From Chloroflexota bacterium (lineage in GTDB: Bacteria; Chloroflexota; Dormibacteria; CF-121): a stretch of 55,814 nt of DNA. The stretch lies in assembly GCA_005889345.1 (NCBI GenBank), contig VBFR01000185.1, forward strand, positions 1 to 55,814, read 5' to 3'. Shown here piece by piece: positions 3,235 to 40,436 of the stretch. The notes beneath the pieces were generated by a model. That model saw nothing but the letters and a program-made list of their open reading frames with translations, did not search any database and was not told the DNA's origin. Within the stretch, counting starts at the first letter, position 1. Each line of letters starts with the position of its first letter. Made by a program: the position numbers and the translations under genes.

Positions 3235-5361
3235 ATGCCTGAAAACGAGCGAATTCCGGCCGACTTCCACCAGGCCATGTTTCGCATCGCCGCGATCGCC
3301 TTTGTGACCGCGGCGACGGTCGATGTGGGCAGCAGCTACATCGGGGCGCCTCACCTCGACTTCGCCGGCATCTGGATCATCGGCATCCTCTCTTATGTCG
3401 GCGCCGTGGTGAGCTGGTTCTTCCCCTGGCACCGGCTGCCGGTGGAGCGATTCCTGGTGGTCATCGTCATGCCGGGCCTCGTGCTGCTCGGGTTCATGCT
3501 GATGGCCACGGGCGGCGTTCACTCGCACATCCTGCCGATCTTCATCGCTCCCGCCGTCTTCATGGCGGCGGCGTACGGGTTCCGCGCGGGGGCCGCGATC
3601 GCGATCCTGACGGCCGCGACGGGAACGCTGCCGCTCTTCATCAACGGCTGGGACAGCAACTACGGCCGGACCCTGGTCGTGCTGGCGGTCGCGACCATGC
3701 TGTGCGCCTACATCTCGGCCCGCGTCCGACAATCGCTGCTCAACGAGTACGAAACGCGGCGCCGGCAACAGGAAGAGAGCTACGTGGCCACCATCGGCGC
3801 CCTGGCGGCTGCCCTGGACGCGAAAGACCGCTACACGGAGGCGCATTCGCGGGAGACCGCCGAGTTCGCCGTCAACGTCGGCAAGCGCCTCCACCTGCCG
3901 GCCGACCAGCTGCGCCTGCTCGAATACGGCGCTCTGCTTCACGACATCGGCAAGATCGGCATTCCCGGCTACATCCTGCAGAAGCCCGGGGCGCTGACGC
4001 CCGAAGAATTTGCCATCATGCGCGAGCACCCGGTGATCGGCGAACGGATCCTCGCCTCGGTGCCGTTCCTTGCCCCGCTCGGCCCCATCGTTCGGGCTGA
4101 ACACGAGCGATGGAATGGCACGGGGTACCCCGATGGCCTCAAGGGAGAGGAGATTCCGATCGAGGCGCGCATCATCCACGCTTGCGACGCGTTCCACGCG
4201 ATGGCCTCGGACCGTGCCTACCGCAAGGCATTGCCGATGGCGTCGATCGTGGCGGAGTTTCAGAAGGAAACCGGCCAGCAGTTCGACCCCCGAGTGGTCG
4301 ACGTGCTGCTGGAGCTGATCGAGAGCGAACCGCCGCACATCTCGGCACCCGCCCAGGCGTCCGGCCAACCGATGCCGGACACGAGCGTGTCAGGTCCGCG
4401 CGGCTGGGCCCAGCACATGCAGACCGTGGAGGCGCTCGGACAACAGCTTGCCCGCGCGACCAGCATCGAGGATATCAGCAGCCGGATCGGGGCGACGATT
4501 TCTACGCTGGTGCCGCACGACCAGTGCCGAGTGCTGTTGATGAACGAAGACCGCACCCAGCTCAAGGTCGTCTACCTGAAGGGGACCGATCGCGAAGAAT
4601 ACCGCGCCGTGACGCGGGAAAACGCGGCGGTGGAAGTGGGGGAGGGCATTACCGGCTGGGTGGCGGAGTCGCGTCGCGGCGTCGTGCTGGGTGATACCGA
4701 GCACCATCCGAAGGCGAAGCACGTCCCTGGCACCGCGATGATCGATGAGTCGATGCTCGCCGTGCCGGTGGTCTTCGAGGACGAGATCCTCGCGGTCATC
4801 GTCGTCACCAAGCTGGGACTGAATCAGTACTCGCTCGACCAGCTCCGGTTGCTGACGATTCTCGCCAACCAGGCGGCGGTGGCGATGGCGAACGCCCGGC
4901 TGATCGAGCGACTCGCCTCGGCAGCGACGATCGATGCCTTGACCGGCTTGATGAACCGCGCCGCGTTTGAGGAGGCGGTCAACAAACTCATGCTGCGCCC
5001 GCAGTCGTGGGGGACGTTGCTGATGCTCGACGTGGAGAAGCTTCGCGACGTGAACGAGGCCTACGGTCACCGCGCCGGCGACGCCGTGCTCAAGCGGATC
5101 GCCCGGGCGATTCGCGCCTCGATCCGCAGCGACGACGTGGCGGCCCGCTGGATCGGCGACAACTTCGCCATCCTTGCCCCGGGCTTCTACGCCAGCCAGG
5201 CGGACGTCCTCGCCAAGCGGATCGAAACTGCGCTGCAATCCGACCGGGTTTCGATTCGGTGGGGGACCGCCGAATACCACGGGGATGCGCTGACCGCTCA
5301 GGACCTGCTGGCGGCGGCGCTCAAGTCGCTGGCCGGCAAGCGCGACGACGTCGCCGCCTGA
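3235..5361 (+). CDS. Membrane-bound HD-GYP + GAF + degenerate GGDEF c-di-GMP signalling protein
   Basis: About 5-6 N-terminal TM helices; LLHDIGKIG, EHERWNGTGYPDGL, CDAFHAM; GAF (VGEGITGWVAE...SMLAVPV); GGDEF-like DALTGLMNR...NEAYGHRAGD...RWIGDNF. Confidence 0.9.
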   Translation: MPENERIPADFHQAMFRIAAIAFVTAATVDVGSSYIGAPHLDFAGIWIIGILSYVGAVVSWFFPWHRLPVERFLVVIVMPGLVLLGFMLMATGGVHSHILPIFIAPAVFMAAAYGFRAGAAIAILTAATGTLPLFINGWDSNYGRTLVVLAVATMLCAYISARVRQSLLNEYETRRRQQEESYVATIGALAAALDAKDRYTEAHSRETAEFAVNVGKRLHLPADQLRLLEYGALLHDIGKIGIPGYILQKPGALTPEEFAIMREHPVIGERILASVPFLAPLGPIVRAEHERWNGTGYPDGLKGEEIPIEARIIHACDAFHAMASDRAYRKALPMASIVAEFQKETGQQFDPRVVDVLLELIESEPPHISAPAQASGQPMPDTSVSGPRGWAQHMQTVEALGQQLARATSIEDISSRIGATISTLVPHDQCRVLLMNEDRTQLKVVYLKGTDREEYRAVTRENAAVEVGEGITGWVAESRRGVVLGDTEHHPKAKHVPGTAMIDESMLAVPVVFEDEILAVIVVTKLGLNQYSLDQLRLLTILANQAAVAMANARLIERLASAATIDALTGLMNRAAFEEAVNKLMLRPQSWGTLLMLDVEKLRDVNEAYGHRAGDAVLKRIARAIRASIRSDDVAARWIGDNFAILAPGFYASQADVLAKRIETALQSDRVSIRWGTAEYHGDALTAQDLLAAALKSLAGKRDDVAA

Positions 5362-34182: not shown

Positions 34183-35100
34183 ATGGCGGGCGTGCCCGCC
34201 AGTAATCGAAGTGCGGCGGGCGTGGCGCTCGTCATCGGCTCGGCATGTTGCTTCGGATCACTCGGCGTCTTCGGCAAGCTCGCCTACCGGCTCGGGCTGA
34301 CCACGCCGCAGCTGCTCAGTTATCGGTTCGCGCTGGCCGCGCTGATGCTCTGGTTGGCCACCGCGGTCACGCGACAGGGCTTGCCGCCGCGACGTAGTCT
34401 CGTCGGTCTCGCGATCATGGGCGGTGCCGGCTACGTCGGCCAGTCGGCGGCCTATTTCAGCGCCCTGCACTTCATCCCGGTGTCGACCACGGCCCTGCTG
34501 CTCTACACCTTTCCCGTGGTCGTCACCTTGCTGGCGACGCTTCTTTTCCAGGAGCCGCTCGGCTGGACAAGGATCGTAGCCGTGGCCCTGGCGTTCATCG
34601 GCACGATGCTCGTGGTGCAGGCGCAACTGACGGCTGCGCCGCCGATCGGCATCATCCTGGGACTGACGTCCGCGGCCGTCTACTCGGGCTACATCCTTCT
34701 TGGAAGCCGGCTGCTCCCCGGGATCCCGCCTGTTTCAGCGACCGCCACTATCGCGACCGCCGCCGCGATCGTGTGGAGCGGATTCGCGGCCGCAACCGGC
34801 CAGCTGATGGTGAATTGGACGCCCTCACGAGCGGCGCTCCTCATTGCCTTTGCGGTGATCGCGAGCACCATCCCGATCCTGGCATTCATCCTGGGTCTCC
34901 GGCTGATCGGGGCATCCCGCGCTGCCATTCTCAGCACCTTCGAGCCGGCGAGCAGCGTGCTGCTCGCGGTCCTCGTCCTGGGTGAAGCAGCCAATCCCAT
35001 CCAATATCTCGGCGGCGCATTCATCCTGGCATCCGTTGTGGTGCTCGAAGGCCAGGGCTGGCTCGCTTCGCGGGCGCTTGCGCAGGCGACGCGGGAGTAG
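34183..35100 (+). CDS. EamA/DMT family transporter
   Basis: About 10 TM helices, YRFALAA, LLYTFP, ILSTFEP, LGE motifs; start may be GTG 34192. Confidence 0.92.
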   Translation: MAGVPASNRSAAGVALVIGSACCFGSLGVFGKLAYRLGLTTPQLLSYRFALAALMLWLATAVTRQGLPPRRSLVGLAIMGGAGYVGQSAAYFSALHFIPVSTTALLLYTFPVVVTLLATLLFQEPLGWTRIVAVALAFIGTMLVVQAQLTAAPPIGIILGLTSAAVYSGYILLGSRLLPGIPPVSATATIATAAAIVWSGFAAATGQLMVNWTPSRAALLIAFAVIASTIPILAFILGLRLIGASRAAILSTFEPASSVLLAVLVLGEAANPIQYLGGAFILASVVVLEGQGWLASRALAQATRE

Positions 35101-35149
35101 GCCGGGTCCGGCAGAAATCCCGGGCCGCACCGTTACTCCTGAGTCGGTG

Positions 35150-35713
35150 ATGGCTACCTCACACAAAGACGACACACTCTGGGGCGCGGTCGCCGAAGCG
35201 CTGGTCTCAGCCTATGCGTTGATCGGTGCCGCGGGAAAACTCACGGCCTACCGCCCGTTTAGCGATGTCGATGGAAAGGACATCATCATCGACCTTGCCG
35301 GAGGGTTCAAGGACATCTACCTCCAGGTCAAATGCGCCCTTGGCGTGAATCGCAACCGCTGCATCGGCGGGACCGTGCGGATGCGGCATGGTTACATTCC
35401 CTCTGATCCCAAACTCGTATACGTCTTCTGTCTCCTGAACAAACAGAAAATGGAGCTGACCAGACTCTGGGTAGTGCCGGCCGCCGCGTTCTACAAGCGG
35501 GCGTATCGGACCGCTCTCCCGAAGGGCATGATCCAGTTCAATTTCGATTGCCGACTCGCCGGGGATAAACGATGGGACGAATTCGAAGTCACGCGGGCCG
35601 AGCTCGGTCCGAGACTCGTCAAACTCATCAGGGCGGCCGCTAAAAGAGAACGTCGCGCCCGCATGAACAAACTAGAGCAGCTCGACGGCCGCTGGCTTCA
35701 GTTCGTCGCCTAG
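35150..35713 (+). CDS. PD-(D/E)XK restriction-endonuclease-fold protein (DUF4365-like)
   Basis: GAVAE...PFSDVDGKDIII...IYLQVK, matching the E...D...QxK catalytic pattern. Confidence 0.65.
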   Translation: MATSHKDDTLWGAVAEALVSAYALIGAAGKLTAYRPFSDVDGKDIIIDLAGGFKDIYLQVKCALGVNRNRCIGGTVRMRHGYIPSDPKLVYVFCLLNKQKMELTRLWVVPAAAFYKRAYRTALPKGMIQFNFDCRLAGDKRWDEFEVTRAELGPRLVKLIRAAAKRERRARMNKLEQLDGRWLQFVA

Positions 35714-35763: not shown

Positions 35764-35840
35764 GCCCCCTTAGCTCAGTGGACCAGAGCGGGTGCCTTCT
35801 AAGCACTAGGCCGCAGGTTCGAATCCTGCAGGGGGCACCA
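35764..35840 (+). tRNA. tRNA-Arg (anticodon TCT)
   Basis: Acceptor GCCCCCT/AGGGGGC, D arm TAGCTCAGTGGACCAGAGC, anticodon arm GGTGC-CTTCTAA-GCACT, GGTTCGAATCC T loop, encoded CCA; TATAAT at 35746-35751. Confidence 0.97.
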
Positions 35841-35854
35841 ACCCAGTGTACAAG

Positions 35855-35942
35855 TTCGGCTGACGTGTCCCATTGGGCCTTCGGCTGATGTGTCGCACGC
35901 CTTCGGCTGATGTGTCGCATCTACTTCGGCTGATGTGTCGCA
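35855..35942 (+). repeat. Four 18-bp direct repeats TTCGGCTGATGTGTCGCA (putative transposase-binding sites, left end)
   Basis: Copies at 35855, 35880, 35902, 35925; gaps of 7, 4 and 5 bp. Confidence 0.92.
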
Positions 35943-35963
35943 CCTTGGCCCATGCTGGCCGGC

Positions 35964-37151
35964 ATGAGGGACATGAGCGTGACTGAGCAGCGGTATCAGG
36001 CCGTGTTGGACGTGATCGGGCAGGGCCGGGCGGTGATGGAAGTGGCCAGCCAGTGGGGGGTGAGCCGGCGGACGGTGGAGCGCTGGTTGGCTCGCTACGA
36101 GGCCCAGGGACTGGAGGGCTTGCCCGACCGTTCGCATCGGCCGGAGCGGTGTCCGCACCAGATGCCCGCCGAAATGGAAGTCATGGTGCTCGAACTACGC
36201 CGGGCGCATCGCTACTGGGGCGCTCGGCGCCTGGTCCTGGAGCTGGTTCGCAAAGGGATCATGCCGACACCTTCGGAATCGGCAGTGTACCGGTGCCTGG
36301 TGCGCGCCGGCGTCATCGACCCGGTGAAACGTCACCGACGGAGGGAGATGTGGAAGCGGTGGGAGCGCGGTGGACCAATGGAGCTCTGGCAGCTGGACGT
36401 GGTGGGCGGCTTCCTGCTGGCGAACGGCACCTCGGCAAAGGCCCTGACCGGGGTCGACGACCATTCCCGGTTCTGCGTGTCGGCCCGCCTCATGCCGCGC
36501 GAAGGAACCCAGCTGGTTTGTGATGGTTTGCTGAGCGCACTACGTACCCATGGCGTGCCACAGCAGGTTCTCACTGACAACGGCAAGGTCTTCACCGGCA
36601 AATACTCGAAGCCGCCCGTCGACGTGCTCTTTGACCGGATCTGTCGCGAAAACGGCATCGACCATCTCCTCACCCAGCCGGCCTGTCCCACCACCACTGG
36701 CAAGATTGAGCGCTTTCACCGTACCCTGCGTCTCGAGTTCGACACACGGCGGGCATTCGCCAGCCTGGCGGTGGCCCAGCAGGCGCTCGACGAGTGGGTG
36801 ACGTACTACAACACCGAGCGGCCCCATCAGGCCTGCGGTGACAAGGCCCCCGTCAGCCGTTTTCATGTCGCGGCACGCACCCCGACGGAACCGGAGCCTC
36901 GGCCGGACCGCACCGGTGAGCACTGGGTCACGCGCAAGGTCAGTACCGTCGGCGTGGTCTGCGTCGGCTACCAGCAGGTTTGTATCGGCCAGAGCTATGC
37001 CGGCAGCGCCTGCGATGTCCTGCTCACTGATGGGACGCTGCAGTACTGGGTTGGCAATGAGCTGGTGAAGACGGTGGCCCGGGAAACGAAAGGCGAGATC
37101 CGCAAGAAGTACGCCGACGGAACCGCGCCCACCAGGGGAAGATCGCTTTGA
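35964..37151 (+). CDS. IS481-family DDE transposase
   Basis: HTH (WGVSRRTVERWLARY), LWQLD, VDDHSR, LTDNG, TTGKIERFHRT, YNTERPHQ; C-terminal beta domain. Confidence 0.95.
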   Translation: MRDMSVTEQRYQAVLDVIGQGRAVMEVASQWGVSRRTVERWLARYEAQGLEGLPDRSHRPERCPHQMPAEMEVMVLELRRAHRYWGARRLVLELVRKGIMPTPSESAVYRCLVRAGVIDPVKRHRRREMWKRWERGGPMELWQLDVVGGFLLANGTSAKALTGVDDHSRFCVSARLMPREGTQLVCDGLLSALRTHGVPQQVLTDNGKVFTGKYSKPPVDVLFDRICRENGIDHLLTQPACPTTTGKIERFHRTLRLEFDTRRAFASLAVAQQALDEWVTYYNTERPHQACGDKAPVSRFHVAARTPTEPEPRPDRTGEHWVTRKVSTVGVVCVGYQQVCIGQSYAGSACDVLLTDGTLQYWVGNELVKTVARETKGEIRKKYADGTAPTRGRSL

Positions 37152-37154
37152 GGG

Positions 37155-37197
37155 TGCGACAGATCAACCGAACTAGACTTGCGACAGATCAACCGAA
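37155..37197 (-). repeat. Two inverted copies of the 18-bp end repeat (right end)
   Basis: TGCGACAGATCAACCGAA at 37155-37172 and 37180-37197; reverse complement TTCGGTTGATCTGTCGCA matches the left repeat at 16/18. Confidence 0.92.
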
Positions 37198-37222
37198 GGT
37201 GCTCAGGGGGCACCAACCCAGT

Positions 37223-37318
37223 TGTAGGGATTCGGCTGAGGTGTCCCATTGGAGCTTCGGCTGATGTGTCTCACAGCTTCGGGTGATGTGTCCCAGCTGG
37301 TTCGGCTGACGCGTCGCA
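37223..37318 (+). mobile_element. Second, transposase-less left end of a related element
   Basis: TGTAGGGA + four diverged 18-bp repeats at 37231, 37256, 37278, 37301 with the same 7/4/5-bp gaps; no transposase follows. Confidence 0.85.
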
Positions 37319-37394
37319 CTTTCCGGGGGGCTGATCGTTGGCGAACAGACGTGTGTGTCCGATGCTGTGGACTGGACTATTAGCGACAACCATA

Positions 37395-37538: not shown

Positions 37539-40436
37539 GTGAGGGAAGCGTCGACGGCGGTCGTGTCAGCAAAGGTGCTGATTCCCCAGGTGCATTCCCT
37601 TGCCCGCGAGCGCGTCGATGCCGTCCTCGCCCGAATCTGGCAGCATCGCGTCGGGCTCGTCGTCGCACCGGCGGGATCGGGCAAGAGCACGCTGCTGGCC
37701 GGCTTCGCCGCCTCGGCCAACGTGCCCGTCGCCTGGTACCGAGCCGAGAGCTGGGACGCGAAGACCACCACCCTGCTGAGCCATTTGCATTCCGCGTTCA
37801 CCGCGGCCCTGGGCTCCATCCCGGATGGCTGGGACTCCGTCGAGGCGGCGGCCCGAGCGCTCGAGTCCTGGTCGGGACGGCGCGCCGTGCTGATCATCGA
37901 TGACCTTCACACGCTCGAGGACAGCCCGGCCGAGCGCACGCTCGAACGCCTCATCGACTACGCCCCGCCAAGCATCGCCTTCTTGATCGGTTCGCGCGCG
38001 CTGCCCGGCTTCAATCTGTCGCGTCTGCGCGTCTCGGGATCGCTGCTCGAAATCGGCAGCGAGGACCTGCGCTTTCGTTCGTGGGAGGTCGAGCGCCTCT
38101 TCCGCGATTTCTATCGCGCTCCGTTGCCCCCCGAAGAGCTCGCTGAGCTCGCGCGCCGCACCGAGGGCTGGGCGGCCGGCCTGCAGCTGTTCCACCTCGC
38201 GACCCGCGGCAAGTCGCCCCAAGAGCGACGGCGCATTCTCACCGCCCTCGGCAGCCGGTCGCGGCTGACCCGCGAGTATCTGACCCGCAACGTCCTCGAC
38301 CAGCTGCCCGCCGAGCTGCGCTGGTTCCTGGTCCGGACCTGCGTCCTGACCCGGCTGACCGGGTCAATTTGTGACACATTCCTCGATCGCAGCAGCAGCC
38401 AGCAGGTGCTCGAGGAGCTCGAGCGTCGGCAGATCTTCACGACGGCGACCGACGATCGTGGCGGCTACCGCTATCACGAAGTGCTGCGCTCGCATCTCGA
38501 ACAAGTGCTCGTGGAAGAGCTCGGTGAGGTGCAGGCCCGGGCCGCCTACCGGAAGGCCGCGAGGCTGCTCGAGGCGAGCGGCGCCTTCCCCGATGCGGTG
38601 CAGGCGTATTCGCGCGGCGAAGACTGGGAGGCGGTGGACCGAATGCTCCATCACCAGGGGGGCGAGCTGCTCGAGGGACCGGACACCTGGATCGATGCGC
38701 TGCCGCCCGCGCTCCTCCGCCAGGATCCCTGGCTGATGCTCGGCAGCGCGCGGCGTCACCGGGCCGAGGGGCGCTGGCGTGAGGCGATCGACGCCTACCA
38801 CCGGGCCGAGCGCGTGTTCGGGTCGAGCGAGGCCGGGCTCATCTGCGCCGCCGAGCGCAAAGCGCTGGCCGGCTGGCTGGAGCCCGCCCCGATGCCGGGT
38901 AATGACTGGGCCGGTCTTTTGCGCAAGGCCGTGGCGCATGACCCGCTCGCCGCCAAGCAATTCGCTGGCCAGTTGCCCGAGGCGACCGGCAAGCTGAGCA
39001 TTGGGGTCATCTGCCTGTTGGCCGGACAAATGGATCAGGCGCGGCGCCACCTGAACGCGGCGGCCGACAGCCGCGACGCCACGGCGGCACTGGCGACGGC
39101 AGCCCGGCTCTGGGCCGGGGTCGCCGCGCTGCTCAGTGGTGACCTACAGGGGGTCTTCGACGTCGAGGAAGCGGCCGAGCGCGCCGAGGCGCTCGGGCTC
39201 GGCTGGGTGGCGCGGCTCGCGCGCGCCGCCCTGGTATTGAGTCAGCGGCCGGGGAGTGCGCGGGAGGCCGAGGGCCTGCGAGCCGCCAGCGATCGCGACG
39301 GCGATCGCTGGGGGAGTGCGCTGATCGGCTTGATGATCGGATGGGCGGCGATCTACGCCGGCGACAACGCGGTGGCGGCCCTCGAGCAGGCGACCGACAG
39401 CTTCCGGCAGTTGGGTGCTGGTGTCCTGGAGGCCTGGTCGCGCGCGCTGATCTCACTGGCCCTCGCCCGCATCGGTGCCCCCGAGGCGCGAGACGCGGCG
39501 CTGCAGGCGGAGAATCTCGCTCGCTATAGCGGCACGCCCGGCGCGCGCTACTTCCCCTACCTCGCCCTCGCCGAAATCGAGCCTGAGCGCGGGGCCGAGT
39601 ACCAGAGCCTCGCGGCCTCCGTGCAAGAGGAGTGCAGCCTCGCGCCCCTGGCCGCCCCCACGCCCGCGCCGGAGAACGTGATTCCCCTGGGTGTCGGTCG
39701 CTCGGTGCCGTCGCTGAGCATTCGGTGCTTCGGCGGCTTCAGCATCGCCATCAAGGGACGCCCGGTCGACCTGACCACCATCAAGCCGCGCGCGCGCGCG
39801 GTGCTGCGGCTGCTGGCCATCCACGCGGGCAATCCCGTGCACCGCGAGGTCCTGCAAACGGCGTTCTGGCCGGACGCCGATGCCGACACCGGCGCGCGCA
39901 ACCTTCATGTCGCTGTCTCCTCCCTGCGGTCGTGGCTCGAGCCGGGTGTCGGCCGGGGCGGGTCATCGCTCGTGCTGCGGGAGGGCGATGCGTATCGCCT
40001 CGCGATCCAGGCTGACGCCGAGGTTGATCTGGTGCAGTTTTCCAGGGCGCTCGCCGCCGCGAGGGTGGCGCGGCTACGCGGCGGGGTGGACGCGGTCATC
40101 ACGCACTTCCAGCAGGCGCTCGATCTTTATGCCGGCGAGCTGTTGCCCGAGGATGGGCCGGCCGAGTGGGCGATCGAACCGCGCGAACGGTTTCGCGCCG
40201 GCGCGCTCGAGGCCGCGCAGGGTCTCGCCGAATTGTTGCTCAAGCAGGGCGATCCCGCGGCGGCGGCCAACGCCTGCGCGACCGGGCTGTGGGTTGATCG
40301 GCTCCACGATCCGCTCTGGAAGCTCTTGATCCAGGCGCGCGAGCAGGCGGGCGATCCCGGCGCCGCCAGCCGAGCACGCCGCGATTACGCGCGCGTGCTC
40401 GAAGAGCTCGGCCTTACCGCCAGCTCGCGCGCTTAG
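37539..40436 (+). CDS. MalT-like STAND ATPase transcriptional regulator with C-terminal wHTH-BTAD (SARP) domain
   Basis: APAGSGKST, LIIDDLH, TEGWAAGL, YRYHEVLR; C-terminal IRCFGGFSI...FWPDAD...RNLHVAVSSLR...ALDLYAGELL. Confidence 0.9.
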   Translation: MREASTAVVSAKVLIPQVHSLARERVDAVLARIWQHRVGLVVAPAGSGKSTLLAGFAASANVPVAWYRAESWDAKTTTLLSHLHSAFTAALGSIPDGWDSVEAAARALESWSGRRAVLIIDDLHTLEDSPAERTLERLIDYAPPSIAFLIGSRALPGFNLSRLRVSGSLLEIGSEDLRFRSWEVERLFRDFYRAPLPPEELAELARRTEGWAAGLQLFHLATRGKSPQERRRILTALGSRSRLTREYLTRNVLDQLPAELRWFLVRTCVLTRLTGSICDTFLDRSSSQQVLEELERRQIFTTATDDRGGYRYHEVLRSHLEQVLVEELGEVQARAAYRKAARLLEASGAFPDAVQAYSRGEDWEAVDRMLHHQGGELLEGPDTWIDALPPALLRQDPWLMLGSARRHRAEGRWREAIDAYHRAERVFGSSEAGLICAAERKALAGWLEPAPMPGNDWAGLLRKAVAHDPLAAKQFAGQLPEATGKLSIGVICLLAGQMDQARRHLNAAADSRDATAALATAARLWAGVAALLSGDLQGVFDVEEAAERAEALGLGWVARLARAALVLSQRPGSAREAEGLRAASDRDGDRWGSALIGLMIGWAAIYAGDNAVAALEQATDSFRQLGAGVLEAWSRALISLALARIGAPEARDAALQAENLARYSGTPGARYFPYLALAEIEPERGAEYQSLAASVQEECSLAPLAAPTPAPENVIPLGVGRSVPSLSIRCFGGFSIAIKGRPVDLTTIKPRARAVLRLLAIHAGNPVHREVLQTAFWPDADADTGARNLHVAVSSLRSWLEPGVGRGGSSLVLREGDAYRLAIQADAEVDLVQFSRALAAARVARLRGGVDAVITHFQQALDLYAGELLPEDGPAEWAIEPRERFRAGALEAAQGLAELLLKQGDPAAAANACATGLWVDRLHDPLWKLLIQAREQAGDPGAASRARRDYARVLEELGLTASSRA

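What the first reader, a model, noticed from the sequence alone, without database searches (positions are those of the whole stretch)
35831..37222. IS481-family element with Tn7-like ends and a 16-bp duplication of the tRNA 3' end
Seen: each end has an 8-bp terminus followed by 18-bp sites, four on the left and two inverted on the right; the left starts TGT, the right ends TCA rather than ACA. The flanking direct repeat gggggcaccaacccag contains the tRNA acceptor strand and CCA, and the tRNA stays intact. Established: an 8-bp terminus plus asymmetric transposase sites is the Tn7/TnsB end design. Inference: a single-gene DDE element that targets tRNA 3' ends as a safe site without integrase or TnsC/TnsD, making an unusually long duplication.
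Basis: partly seen in the sequence, partly recalled or inferred. Interest (0 to 1): 0.8.

Follow-up and report, generated by a model that had tools for sequence, protein, structure and literature searches.

The report
Insertion sequence that targets tRNA gene ends
A small one-gene jumping element sits just behind a tRNA gene without damaging it, and its relatives in many soil and freshwater bacteria land at the same spot behind tRNA genes, so this transposase family appears to home to tRNA gene ends on its own.

Summary
Window 35847-37205 is an intact 1359-bp IS481-family insertion sequence. It has a TGT tip, four direct 18-bp sites on the left and two inverted on the right, and one 399-aa DDE transposase. 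It is flanked by an exact 16-bp duplication (35831-35846 and 37206-37221) that starts inside tRNA-Arg(TCT); the tRNA stays whole. A second, solo left end (37223-37322) follows, which is the remnant of an older insertion at the same site.

The tRNA-targeting reading is supported.
- All 4 flanked left ends in this genome lie behind tRNAs.
- 57 of 61 readable left ends among 80 related loci from other genomes lie 28-31 nt after the T-loop of a tRNA gene or tRNA 3' fragment, always in the same orientation. By chance 0.56% of positions pass this test.
- 19 elements have perfect 15- or 16-bp duplications that start at tRNA position 67/68.
- Five same-genus genomes have the site empty.
- Contigs from four soil runs bridge the left junction, and two of them bridge the right junction.

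About 15-bp duplications are already recorded for some IS481 members, so the length is not new. Eight literature searches found no report of tRNA targeting by IS481 elements. This scan noted the same behaviour earlier on other DNA (e1-3558273). How the transposase recognises the target is inferred, not shown.

The parts
35764..35840 (+). tRNA-Arg(TCT), intact and encoding CCA; this is the target gene
   Evidence: ARAGORN; Rfam RF00005 72.5 bits
35831..35846 (.). Target-site duplication, copy 1 (GGGGGCACCAACCCAG): tRNA positions 67-76 plus 6 nt of trailer
   Evidence: (family D5)
35847..37205 (+). Complete IS481-family insertion sequence, 1359 bp
35847..35854 (+). Left 8-bp tip TGTACAAG
   Evidence: the tip is conserved as TGTnnnnn in relatives
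35855..35942 (+). Four direct 18-bp putative transposase-binding sites, starting at 35855, 35880, 35902 and 35925 (spacing 25, 22, 23)
   Evidence: the same spacing is seen in 43 of 58 relatives
35952..37151 (+). Transposase ORF, 399 aa, with HTH-HTH-DDE (D149, D209, E253)-beta-barrel architecture; homologs start at the fifth codon (M5)
37155..37197 (-). Two inverted 18-bp sites (37155-37172 and 37180-37197)
   Evidence: (D8, I1-I8)
37198..37205 (+). Right 8-bp tip GGTGCTCA (TCA here; ACA in most relatives)
37206..37221 (.). Target-site duplication, copy 2
37223..37322 (+). Solo left end (tip TGTAGGGA plus four sites) of an older, related element. The rest is deleted, and no right end or third repeat copy lies downstream
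   Evidence: (D1). It resembles the C204 copy. Intact copies of this type exist in soil contigs (loose ends at 37223 and 37324)

Best explanation
This is an intact and probably active insertion sequence of a distinct IS481-family clade. Its single DDE transposase inserts the element at a fixed place at the 3' end of tRNA genes, in one orientation.

The two strand transfers are staggered by 15-16 bp. One falls inside the 3' acceptor strand, after tRNA position 66/67. The other falls 15-16 bp downstream, 9-10 nt past the discriminator base. Gap repair duplicates positions 67/68 to 82/83, so the tRNA 3' end is rebuilt upstream of the element and the gene stays whole.

The rebuilt tRNA keeps the target, so later copies land at the same place and push older ones downstream. 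That produces tandem arrays and decaying remnants, as in this window.

Shown here: the anatomy, the duplication, the fixed position and orientation across many genomes, empty sites, and the tandem pile-up.

Inferred: the transposase itself reads double-stranded tRNA-gene DNA, meaning the T-arm box 2-3 bp upstream of the duplication and the C at position 74, without a helper protein or guide RNA. Also inferred: read-through from the tRNA promoter may express the transposase.
For: Anatomy and family.

This genome: every left end with a readable flank lies behind a tRNA in the same orientation, 4 of 4. These are Arg-TCT on C155, Ala-CGC on C260, Thr-TGT on C11 and Thr-GGT on C160. The fifth copy (C204) is cut by the contig start.

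Other genomes: 80 loci were examined.
- 61 have an identifiable left tip with at least 32 nt upstream.
- 57 of these have a T-arm hairpin 28-31 nt before the tip: 44 in complete tRNAs and 13 in tRNA 3' parts.
- 1 more has a complete tRNA but a truncated tip.
- 3 have none.
- The same test passes at 590 of 106,154 control positions.

Distance from T54 to the tip in 60 sites: 29 nt in 34, 30 nt in 18, 28 nt in 6 and 31 nt in 2. This holds whether or not CCA is encoded (32 of 60 encode it).

Duplications: 19 elements have perfect ones, 9 of 15 bp and 10 of 16 bp. Each includes locus-specific trailer bases. Worked out by hand, they start at position 68 in 15 elements and at 67 in 4.

Position 74 is C in 58 of 60 targets against 19 of 35 non-target tRNAs of this genome.

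Empty sites: five same-genus genomes carry tRNA-Arg(TCT) followed within 9-62 nt by the homolog of window position about 37371 onward.

Junctions: contigs of four soil runs bridge the left junction, and two of them bridge the right junction.

End architecture of four left and two right sites is conserved.

Fold: HTH-HTH-RNaseH-beta-barrel, nearest to IstA and TnsB. D149, D209 and E253 are invariant in 25 sequences.

No + strand terminator-like site lies between the tRNA and the transposase gene, and no sigma-70-like promoter was found in the region.
Against: No experiment exists; activity and direct DNA recognition are inferred.

About 20 of about 47 elements with both flanks readable lack a matching duplication. 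Their right flank is the 3' end of another tRNA, or of the same tRNA species with a different trailer. For one of them (L029) a second identical copy behind the matching tRNA was found at a contig end in the same genome. That fits flank exchange by recombination or misassembly. The others were not resolved.

Eight loci showed no recognisable left tip, and three tips have no T-arm.

The C74 contrast uses background tRNAs from one genome only.

Insertions beside tRNA 3' fragments (9 loci) could predate the event that truncated the tRNA, so they do not prove that a fragment suffices as a target.

Most loci come from metagenome-assembled genomes.

Related genomes are not independent samples.
Confidence: 0.85

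Rival explanations
1. The element does target tRNA gene ends, but recognition is indirect. The transposase would be recruited by something that marks active tRNA genes, such as a host protein, the transcription or processing machinery, an R-loop, or a hairpin extruded from the non-template strand. It would not read duplex DNA sequence.
For: The targeted tRNAs are of many species (Met, Lys, Arg, Thr, Asn, Gly, Phe, Ala) with different acceptor sequences. The 18-bp end sites differ between subfamilies while the target position stays the same, so the end-binding specificity is not what reads the target.
Against: The position is fixed to within 1 nt relative to the T-loop. C74 is nearly invariant even where CCA is not encoded (26 of 28). 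Nine insertions lie beside tRNA 3' fragments that Rfam does not call as tRNAs, and these are unlikely to be processed as tRNAs. The element occurs across phyla, which argues against reliance on one host's factor.
Confidence: 0.2
2. The 16-bp repeats are crossover (att) sites of a site-specific recombinase acting in trans, and the transposase gene is only cargo.
For: Direct repeats of a tRNA 3' end are the classic signature of integrase-mediated islands.
Against: No integrase lies in or beside the element. The repeats abut TGT/CA tips of a DDE element with binding-site arrays. They include 6-9 locus-specific trailer bases that differ at every site, as expected for a target duplication and not for a carried att core. 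The same element type sits behind eight tRNA species.
Confidence: 0.03
3. Insertion is not targeted. Copies survive only in the harmless spot behind tRNA genes, or the adjacency is an assembly artefact.
For: Most data are from short-read metagenome bins, in which flank swaps do occur.
Against: Selection cannot give single-nucleotide precision and one orientation in 60 of 60 sites. Long-read contigs and a complete chromosome (L045, L046) show the same position with perfect duplications. Contigs of four independent runs bridge the window's left junction and two bridge its right junction.
Confidence: 0.03

Closest known systems
IS481 family insertion sequences (IS481, IS1002; the subset with about 15-bp duplications such as ISMac4 and ISA0963-1)
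   Same: One DDE transposase made without a frameshift, TGT ends, and NCBIfam IS481 model above its cut-off. About 15-bp duplications are recorded for 'not a few' members (PMC10045372, passages seen).
   Different: A fixed target at tRNA gene 3' ends in one orientation was not found in print. The ends carry arrays of four and two sites, whereas IS481 has simple inverted repeats (this is recalled, not tested). At 1359 bp it is slightly above the family size range that I recall from ISfinder.
IS1202 family, ISAjo2/ISAba32 group (dif/pdif-site hunters)
   Same: A single TnsB-like transposase (two HTH, RNaseH, beta-barrel), TGT/ACA ends with an extra internal binding site, orientation-specific insertion a fixed few bp from a conserved chromosomal site, and no TnsC/TnsD (PMC10132070, abstract seen). 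Subgroups have 15-17 bp duplications whose targets are unknown (10.1101/2022.12.17.520857, passages seen).
   Different: The target is different (tRNA, not dif). The NCBIfam ISNCY_2 model scores only 85.5 bits against a cut-off of 250. R260 stands seven residues after the catalytic E, where IS1202 members have Q (the signature is as quoted). The protein is shorter (399 aa against 441-457 aa).
Casposons (Cas1 'casposase'), for example that of Aciduliprofundum boonei
   Same: The target logic is the same. A 15-bp duplication lies directly next to the part of a tRNA gene that encodes the T-psi-C loop, which is needed for recognition, and one protein suffices in vitro (PMC5137440, abstract seen).
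   Different: The enzyme is unrelated (Cas1, not a DDE/RNaseH fold), and casposons are large self-replicating elements. This is convergence, not kinship.
Tn7-like transposons and CRISPR-associated transposons that use tRNA genes as attachment sites
   Same: 8-bp tips with TGT, asymmetric arrays of transposase sites, orientation-specific insertion downstream of a tRNA gene as a safe site, and a TnsB-like fold (listing, 59).
   Different: There is no TnsA, TnsC, or TniQ/TnsD, and no guide RNA. The duplication is 15-16 bp, not 5 bp. No target immunity is apparent, since tandem copies are common.
IS21 IstA
   Same: The best match among solved structures by sequence (E 1.5e-4) and by fold, with multiple terminal binding sites.
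   Different: There is no IstB helper ATPase gene. The NCBIfam IS21 model scores 81.3 bits against a cut-off of 160.

Membership tests
IS481 family | Transposase matches the curated IS481 model above its cut-off | tested here: met
   NF033577 285.7 bits against a cut-off of 224, covering residues 13-304; Pfam LZ_Tnp_IS481, rve, rve_3
IS481 family | Single transposase ORF without programmed frameshift; DDE triad with K/R seven residues after E | tested here: met
   One 399-aa ORF; D149, D209, E253 and R260 invariant in 25 sequences
IS481 family | Ends 5'-TGT ... ACA-3' | tested here: inconclusive
   The left end is TGT. The right end is TCA in this copy and on C204, but ACA on C260 and in most relatives
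IS481 family | Target duplication within the family range (2-15 bp according to ISfinder as quoted in PMC10045372) | tested here: inconclusive
   15 bp in 9 and 16 bp in 10 perfect cases, which is at or one above the quoted upper limit
Tn7-like transposons | TnsB-type transposase with 8-bp TGT tips and arrays of binding sites | tested here: met
   Foldseek matches to TnsB of V-K CAST and Tn7; end anatomy
Tn7-like transposons | TnsC-type AAA+ regulator and a TniQ/TnsD or CRISPR target selector encoded in the element | tested here: not met
   The 1359-bp element holds only the transposase ORF
Tn7-like transposons | 5-bp target duplication | tested here: not met
   15-16 bp
IS1202 family | Transposase matches the ISNCY/IS1202-type model; Q seven residues after the catalytic E | tested here: not met
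   NF033594 85.5 bits against a cut-off of 250; R260 at E+7. That NF033594 stands for the IS1202 group is my assumption
Integrase-borne tRNA islands | Tyrosine or serine recombinase in the element; repeats are a carried att core | tested here: not met
   No such ORF or Pfam hit; the repeats contain locus-specific trailer bases
Casposons | Cas1 casposase and family B polymerase | tested here: not met
   The only protein is a DDE transposase

The most novel reading that the evidence does not exclude
A widespread clade of IS481 elements encodes a single, guide-free, helper-free DDE transposase that reads the T-arm box and C74 of tRNA gene DNA. It inserts at a fixed distance and orientation and rebuilds the tRNA end through a 15-16 bp duplication. 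This would be a target rule convergent with casposons and Tn7-like elements. It appears undescribed in print, and it is small enough (a 399-aa protein with about 105-bp and 55-bp ends) to serve as a compact safe-site insertion tool.
Probability: 0.55. Interest if true: 0.8.

Novelty: new variant of a known kind. Interest (0 to 1): 0.66.

Why it matters
If the transposase alone finds tRNA gene ends, it is the simplest known DDE system with a precise, orientation-specific and harmless chromosomal target. It consists of one 399-aa protein and short ends, against four or more proteins or a guide RNA for Tn7-like elements.

It would also explain 'integrase-less islands' bounded by repeats of tRNA 3' ends in Actinomycetota, Dormibacterota-type and related genomes. 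Island finders may now misread these as integrase attachment sites.

The finding shows that three unrelated enzyme types (Cas1 casposases, Tn7-like machines and this IS481 clade) converged on the same safe site. For casposases the geometry also agrees: T-loop region beside a 15-bp duplication.

The pile-up of copies behind one tRNA gives a natural record of repeated invasions, and it is a source of assembly breaks and flank swaps in metagenome bins.

Tried and rejected
1. Carried flank. I asked whether the right-hand repeat travels with the element, because many right flanks carry another tRNA's 3' end. I rejected this as the general rule. 19 perfect duplications include locus-specific trailer bases. 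In the one genome tested, the 'foreign' flank matches a second copy's own target. A second genome showed only one copy and settled nothing.

2. Right end or third repeat copy for the solo left end, downstream in the window: none with 3 or fewer mismatches. The regulator gene after it is native, since it follows the tRNA in five genomes without any element.

3. Resemblance between the 18-bp end sites and the T-arm as the basis of targeting. Only TTCG is shared. Subfamilies with TCCGCC, CCCGGT or TCCACC sites use the same target position, so I dropped this idea.

4. Same-strain empty allele in sequencing runs. The IS-less joints found come from contigs with 17-18 differences over about 228 nt. 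They are therefore relatives, not the same strain.

5. In-genome control with other IS481 clades. This genome has only the three copies of this clade. Two outgroup elements on actinobacterial plasmids (49-54% identity, transposases of about 600 aa) have no tRNA within 1.5 kb. That is a control of only two.

6. Pfam on the C-terminal 99 residues: no hit.

7. Earlier-findings look-ups by sequence and by place gave nothing.

8. A simple scan found no sigma-70-like promoter in the region, so the expression route remains open.

9. Automated right-end calling picked wrong sites for several loci (L016, L021, L041, L045, L046, L053, L060, L082). For L045 and L046 I used instead.
Full report
WHAT IS THERE

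The window holds one tRNA gene, tRNA-Arg(TCT), at 35764-35840 on the + strand (Rfam tRNA 72.5 bits). Six bases after its CCA, at 35847, a 1359-bp element begins. Its parts, in order, are:
- the tip TGTACAAG;
- four direct 18-mers (TTCGGCTGAyGTGTCsCA) starting at 35855, 35880, 35902 and 35925;
- one ORF, 35952-37151, of 399 aa;
- two identical inverted 18-mers at 37155-37172 and 37180-37197;
- the tip GGTGCTCA, ending at 37205.

The 16-mer GGGGGCACCAACCCAG stands on both sides, at 35831-35846 and 37206-37221. The exact repeat runs for 19 nt only because CA of the right tip and T of the left tip match the flanks.

Genome-wide, the 18-mer with at most two mismatches occurs at 15 places. All 15 lie in this element, in the remnant next to it, or in one related copy.

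It has the tip TGTAGGGA and four sites, spans 37223-37322, and is 85% identical to the first over 92 nt. It follows the second repeat copy after a single T. Downstream there is no matching right end and no third copy of the repeat.

THE PROTEIN

- The ORF passes the curated IS481 model: NF033577 scores 285.7 bits against a cut-off of 224. The IS3, IS21 and ISNCY models stay below their cut-offs.
- Pfam finds rve, rve_3, HTH_32, HTH_28 and LZ_Tnp_IS481.
- In an alignment of 25 homologs at 47-85% identity, D149, D209, E253 and R260 are invariant.
- An AlphaFold2 model has mean pLDDT 71.8 and pTM 0.42. The domains are confident but their mutual placement is not. It shows two helix-turn-helix domains, an RNaseH-like core and a C-terminal beta-barrel at residues 325-376.
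- By fold it is nearest to IstA of IS21, then TnsB of V-K CAST and Tn7, retroviral integrases and MuA. By sequence the nearest solved chains are IstA and a deltaretroviral integrase.
- The last 99 residues have no Pfam match.

IS THE POSITION BEHIND THE tRNA CHANCE?

It is not. In the window's own genome (a 306-contig bin) there are three full copies, on C155, C204 (79% identical) and C260 (68% identical), plus truncated ones on C11 and C160. Each of the four left ends with a readable flank lies behind a tRNA in the same orientation, with TGT 6-7 nt after CCA. The tRNAs are Arg-TCT, Ala-CGC, Thr-TGT and Thr-GGT. The C204 copy is cut by the contig start.

A scan of one genome per species returned 80 related loci. 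They come mostly from bins labelled Dormiibacterota, Actinomycetota or Chloroflexi. I classified all 80:
- 44: complete tRNA whose T-arm lies 28-31 nt before the tip.
- 13: such a T-arm but no complete tRNA. In four the contig starts inside the tRNA. Nine are tRNA 3' fragments, where Rfam also finds no tRNA.
- 1: complete tRNA with a truncated tip.
- 3: a tip but no T-arm.
- 2: the tip lies at the contig start.
- 9: the left end lies outside the locus.
- 8: no recognisable tip.

So 57 of the 61 readable left ends pass. The same test passes at 590 of 106,154 control positions in the same loci. The orientation is the same in every case.

GEOMETRY

- In 60 sites (56 from other genomes plus 4 from this genome), the distance from the first T of the T-loop (T54) to the element tip is 29 nt in 34, 30 nt in 18, 28 nt in 6 and 31 nt in 2. 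Only 32 of the 60 encode CCA. The element therefore measures from the tRNA body, not from CCA.
- Nineteen elements have perfect duplications, 9 of 15 bp and 10 of 16 bp, each including trailer bases unique to the locus.
- Combining those lengths with the offsets by hand, the duplication starts at tRNA position 68 in 15 elements and at 67 in 4. The upstream joint is thus nearly fixed, 2-3 bp after the T-stem.
- Eight more elements have one to three mismatches or one indel.
- Position 74 is C in 58 of 60 targets, including 26 of the 28 without CCA. In the non-target tRNAs of this genome it is C in 19 of 35. G46 is present in 59 of 60 targets. The background comes from a single genome, so this is suggestive only.
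- Complete target tRNAs number 48: Met 12, Lys 10, Arg 10, Thr 9, Asn 4, and Gly, Phe and Ala one each.
- Four left sites at +8, +33, +55 and +78 from the tip recur in 43 of 58 elements. Two right sites 25 nt apart were detected in 25 of 58 at the threshold used.

RESULTS THAT DO NOT FIT AT FIRST SIGHT

In about 20 of about 47 elements with both flanks readable, the right flank does not repeat the left one. It begins with the 3' end of a different tRNA (for example L009, L029, L030, L041, L044, L055, L065 and this genome's C260). In other cases it is the same tRNA species with another trailer (L021, L025, L060, L072).

I tested whether the flank travels with the element. In the genome of L029, a second, identical copy sits at a contig end behind tRNA-Arg(CCT). 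That tRNA's 3' end and trailer match L029's right flank. The flanks of two copies have therefore been exchanged, either by recombination or by the assembler. Each such flank is a further trace of a tRNA insertion. A second genome gave no answer, and the remaining cases are unresolved.

THE LOCUS IN RELATIVES

- Five same-genus genomes (G003, G004, G015, G007, G017) have tRNA-Arg(TCT) followed after 9-62 nt by the homolog of window position about 37371 onward, with no element.
- G005 has an internally deleted copy at the same place.
- G025 has nested remnants, cut by another element.
- L012 has an intact copy with 90% protein identity.
- The site is therefore a repeatedly used hot spot. The regulator gene at 37539-40436 is native and not cargo.

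Tandem left ends directly after the duplication also occur on C260 and in L016, L051, L058 and L068. There is thus no sign of target immunity.

READS

Contigs of four soil metagenome runs from four studies were laid on the stretch. One of the runs may be the window's own source.
- With 0-1 differences they bridge the left junction in all four runs.
- They bridge the right junction in two runs (X1 and X2).
- Joints that skip from 35836 or 35844 to 37371-37386 come from relatives at about 92% identity, that is, from empty sites.
- Loose ends show the remnant-type element behind a tRNA-Lys(TTT) end elsewhere in these samples.

HOW IT MOST LIKELY WORKS

Shown: a DDE element with a 15-16 bp target duplication at one position and in one orientation relative to tRNA genes.

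Inferred:
- The transposase bound to the end arrays captures duplex tRNA-gene DNA by reading the T-arm box just upstream of the duplication and the C at position 74 near its centre.
- It then makes two strand transfers about one and a half helical turns apart.
- Repair rebuilds the tRNA end.

Because the target survives, new copies insert proximal to old ones.

No + strand terminator-like site lies between the tRNA and the ORF, and no sigma-70-like promoter was found. Read-through from the tRNA promoter is therefore a possible expression route, but it is untested.

COMPARISON WITH WHAT IS KNOWN

- By its transposase the element is an IS481-family member. About 15-bp duplications are already recorded in that family (PMC10045372, passages seen). 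That paper does not mention tRNA.
- The nearest functional parallels within the superfamily are the IS1202-family dif-site hunters. These have a single TnsB-like protein, TGT/ACA ends and a fixed distance and orientation (PMC10132070, abstract seen). Neither that paper nor the related preprint 10.1101/2022.12.17.520857 mentions tRNA.
- The A. boonei casposon uses the same target logic with an unrelated enzyme. It makes a 15-bp duplication next to the T-psi-C-loop part of tRNA-Pro (PMC5137440, abstract seen).
- The tRNA-targeting transposons in print that my searches returned are Tn7-like (listing only).
- The statement that 8-bp TGT tips are shared by Tn7-like and IS481 elements is in PMC11406308 (passage seen).
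- Eight full-text searches found no report of IS481-type elements targeting tRNA genes.
- ISfinder and TnPedia could not be consulted. Subscription journals are largely outside the searched library.

EARLIER NOTES OF THIS SCAN

Note e1-3558273 reached the same reading on another genome, and I tested that reading independently here. Note e1-5084080 reported transposase-less cassettes bounded by such ends at a tRNA-Thr. The solo left end in this window is not such a cassette.

VERDICT

This is a new target specificity within a known family, well documented by comparison but without experiment.

Noticed in passing
window 37539-40436: A 965-aa regulator with AAA_22/AAA_16, Trans_reg_C and BTAD domains. 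It follows tRNA-Arg(TCT) in all five same-genus genomes with an empty site, so it is native and not cargo of the element.
   Followed up: partly
window 34982-35713: A 243-aa ORF just upstream of the tRNA has no Pfam match. In G017 and G007 the syntenic match jumps from about query 918 to the tRNA, so this ORF may itself be an insertion.
   Followed up: no
window 35837-35846 versus L096, L097, L100, L107, L108: The window's tRNA-Arg(TCT) encodes CCA, while its orthologs in seven same-genus genomes do not. I cannot tell whether this is ordinary variation or a trace of past element traffic.
   Followed up: partly
G000 contig C260, about 4352-4400 (locus L003): The right flank of the C260 copy (behind tRNA-Ala) is a 15-nt stretch that matches the CCA-less tRNA-Gly(GCC) end seen in another genome (L015), not this genome's own tRNA-Gly. 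It is followed by another decayed left end. The origin is unresolved.
   Followed up: partly
G000 contig C204, 1-1330 (locus L002): A full copy of the remnant's subtype is cut by the contig start. Its right flank looks like a tRNA 3' end without CCA. The matching tRNA was not found in the bin.
   Followed up: no
L105 (G025:C6:7900-10100): At the same tRNA-Arg site, an old left end is split by an element of about 1.2 kb on the opposite strand. It is followed by a fused pair of left ends and a truncated transposase gene.
   Followed up: no
L098 (G005:C57): An internally deleted copy of about 190 bp keeps the four left sites, about 40 nt of ORF and the right tip, with a 13/17 duplication. It is a MITE-like derivative at the same tRNA.
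   Followed up: no
L063, L064: Transposases with 47% identity and 488-490 aa carry a second copy of the C-terminal beta-barrel motif. L064 has no tRNA within 2.5 kb upstream.
   Followed up: no
L040, just after the right-hand duplication: A third copy of 15 nt of the duplication follows the second one directly. It may be the footprint of a lost tandem copy.
   Followed up: no
L057 and L080: A complete tRNA lies 1.3-2 kb upstream of a 3' fragment of the same tRNA that borders the element. In L080 the fragment replaces the 3' end of another copy.
   Followed up: partly
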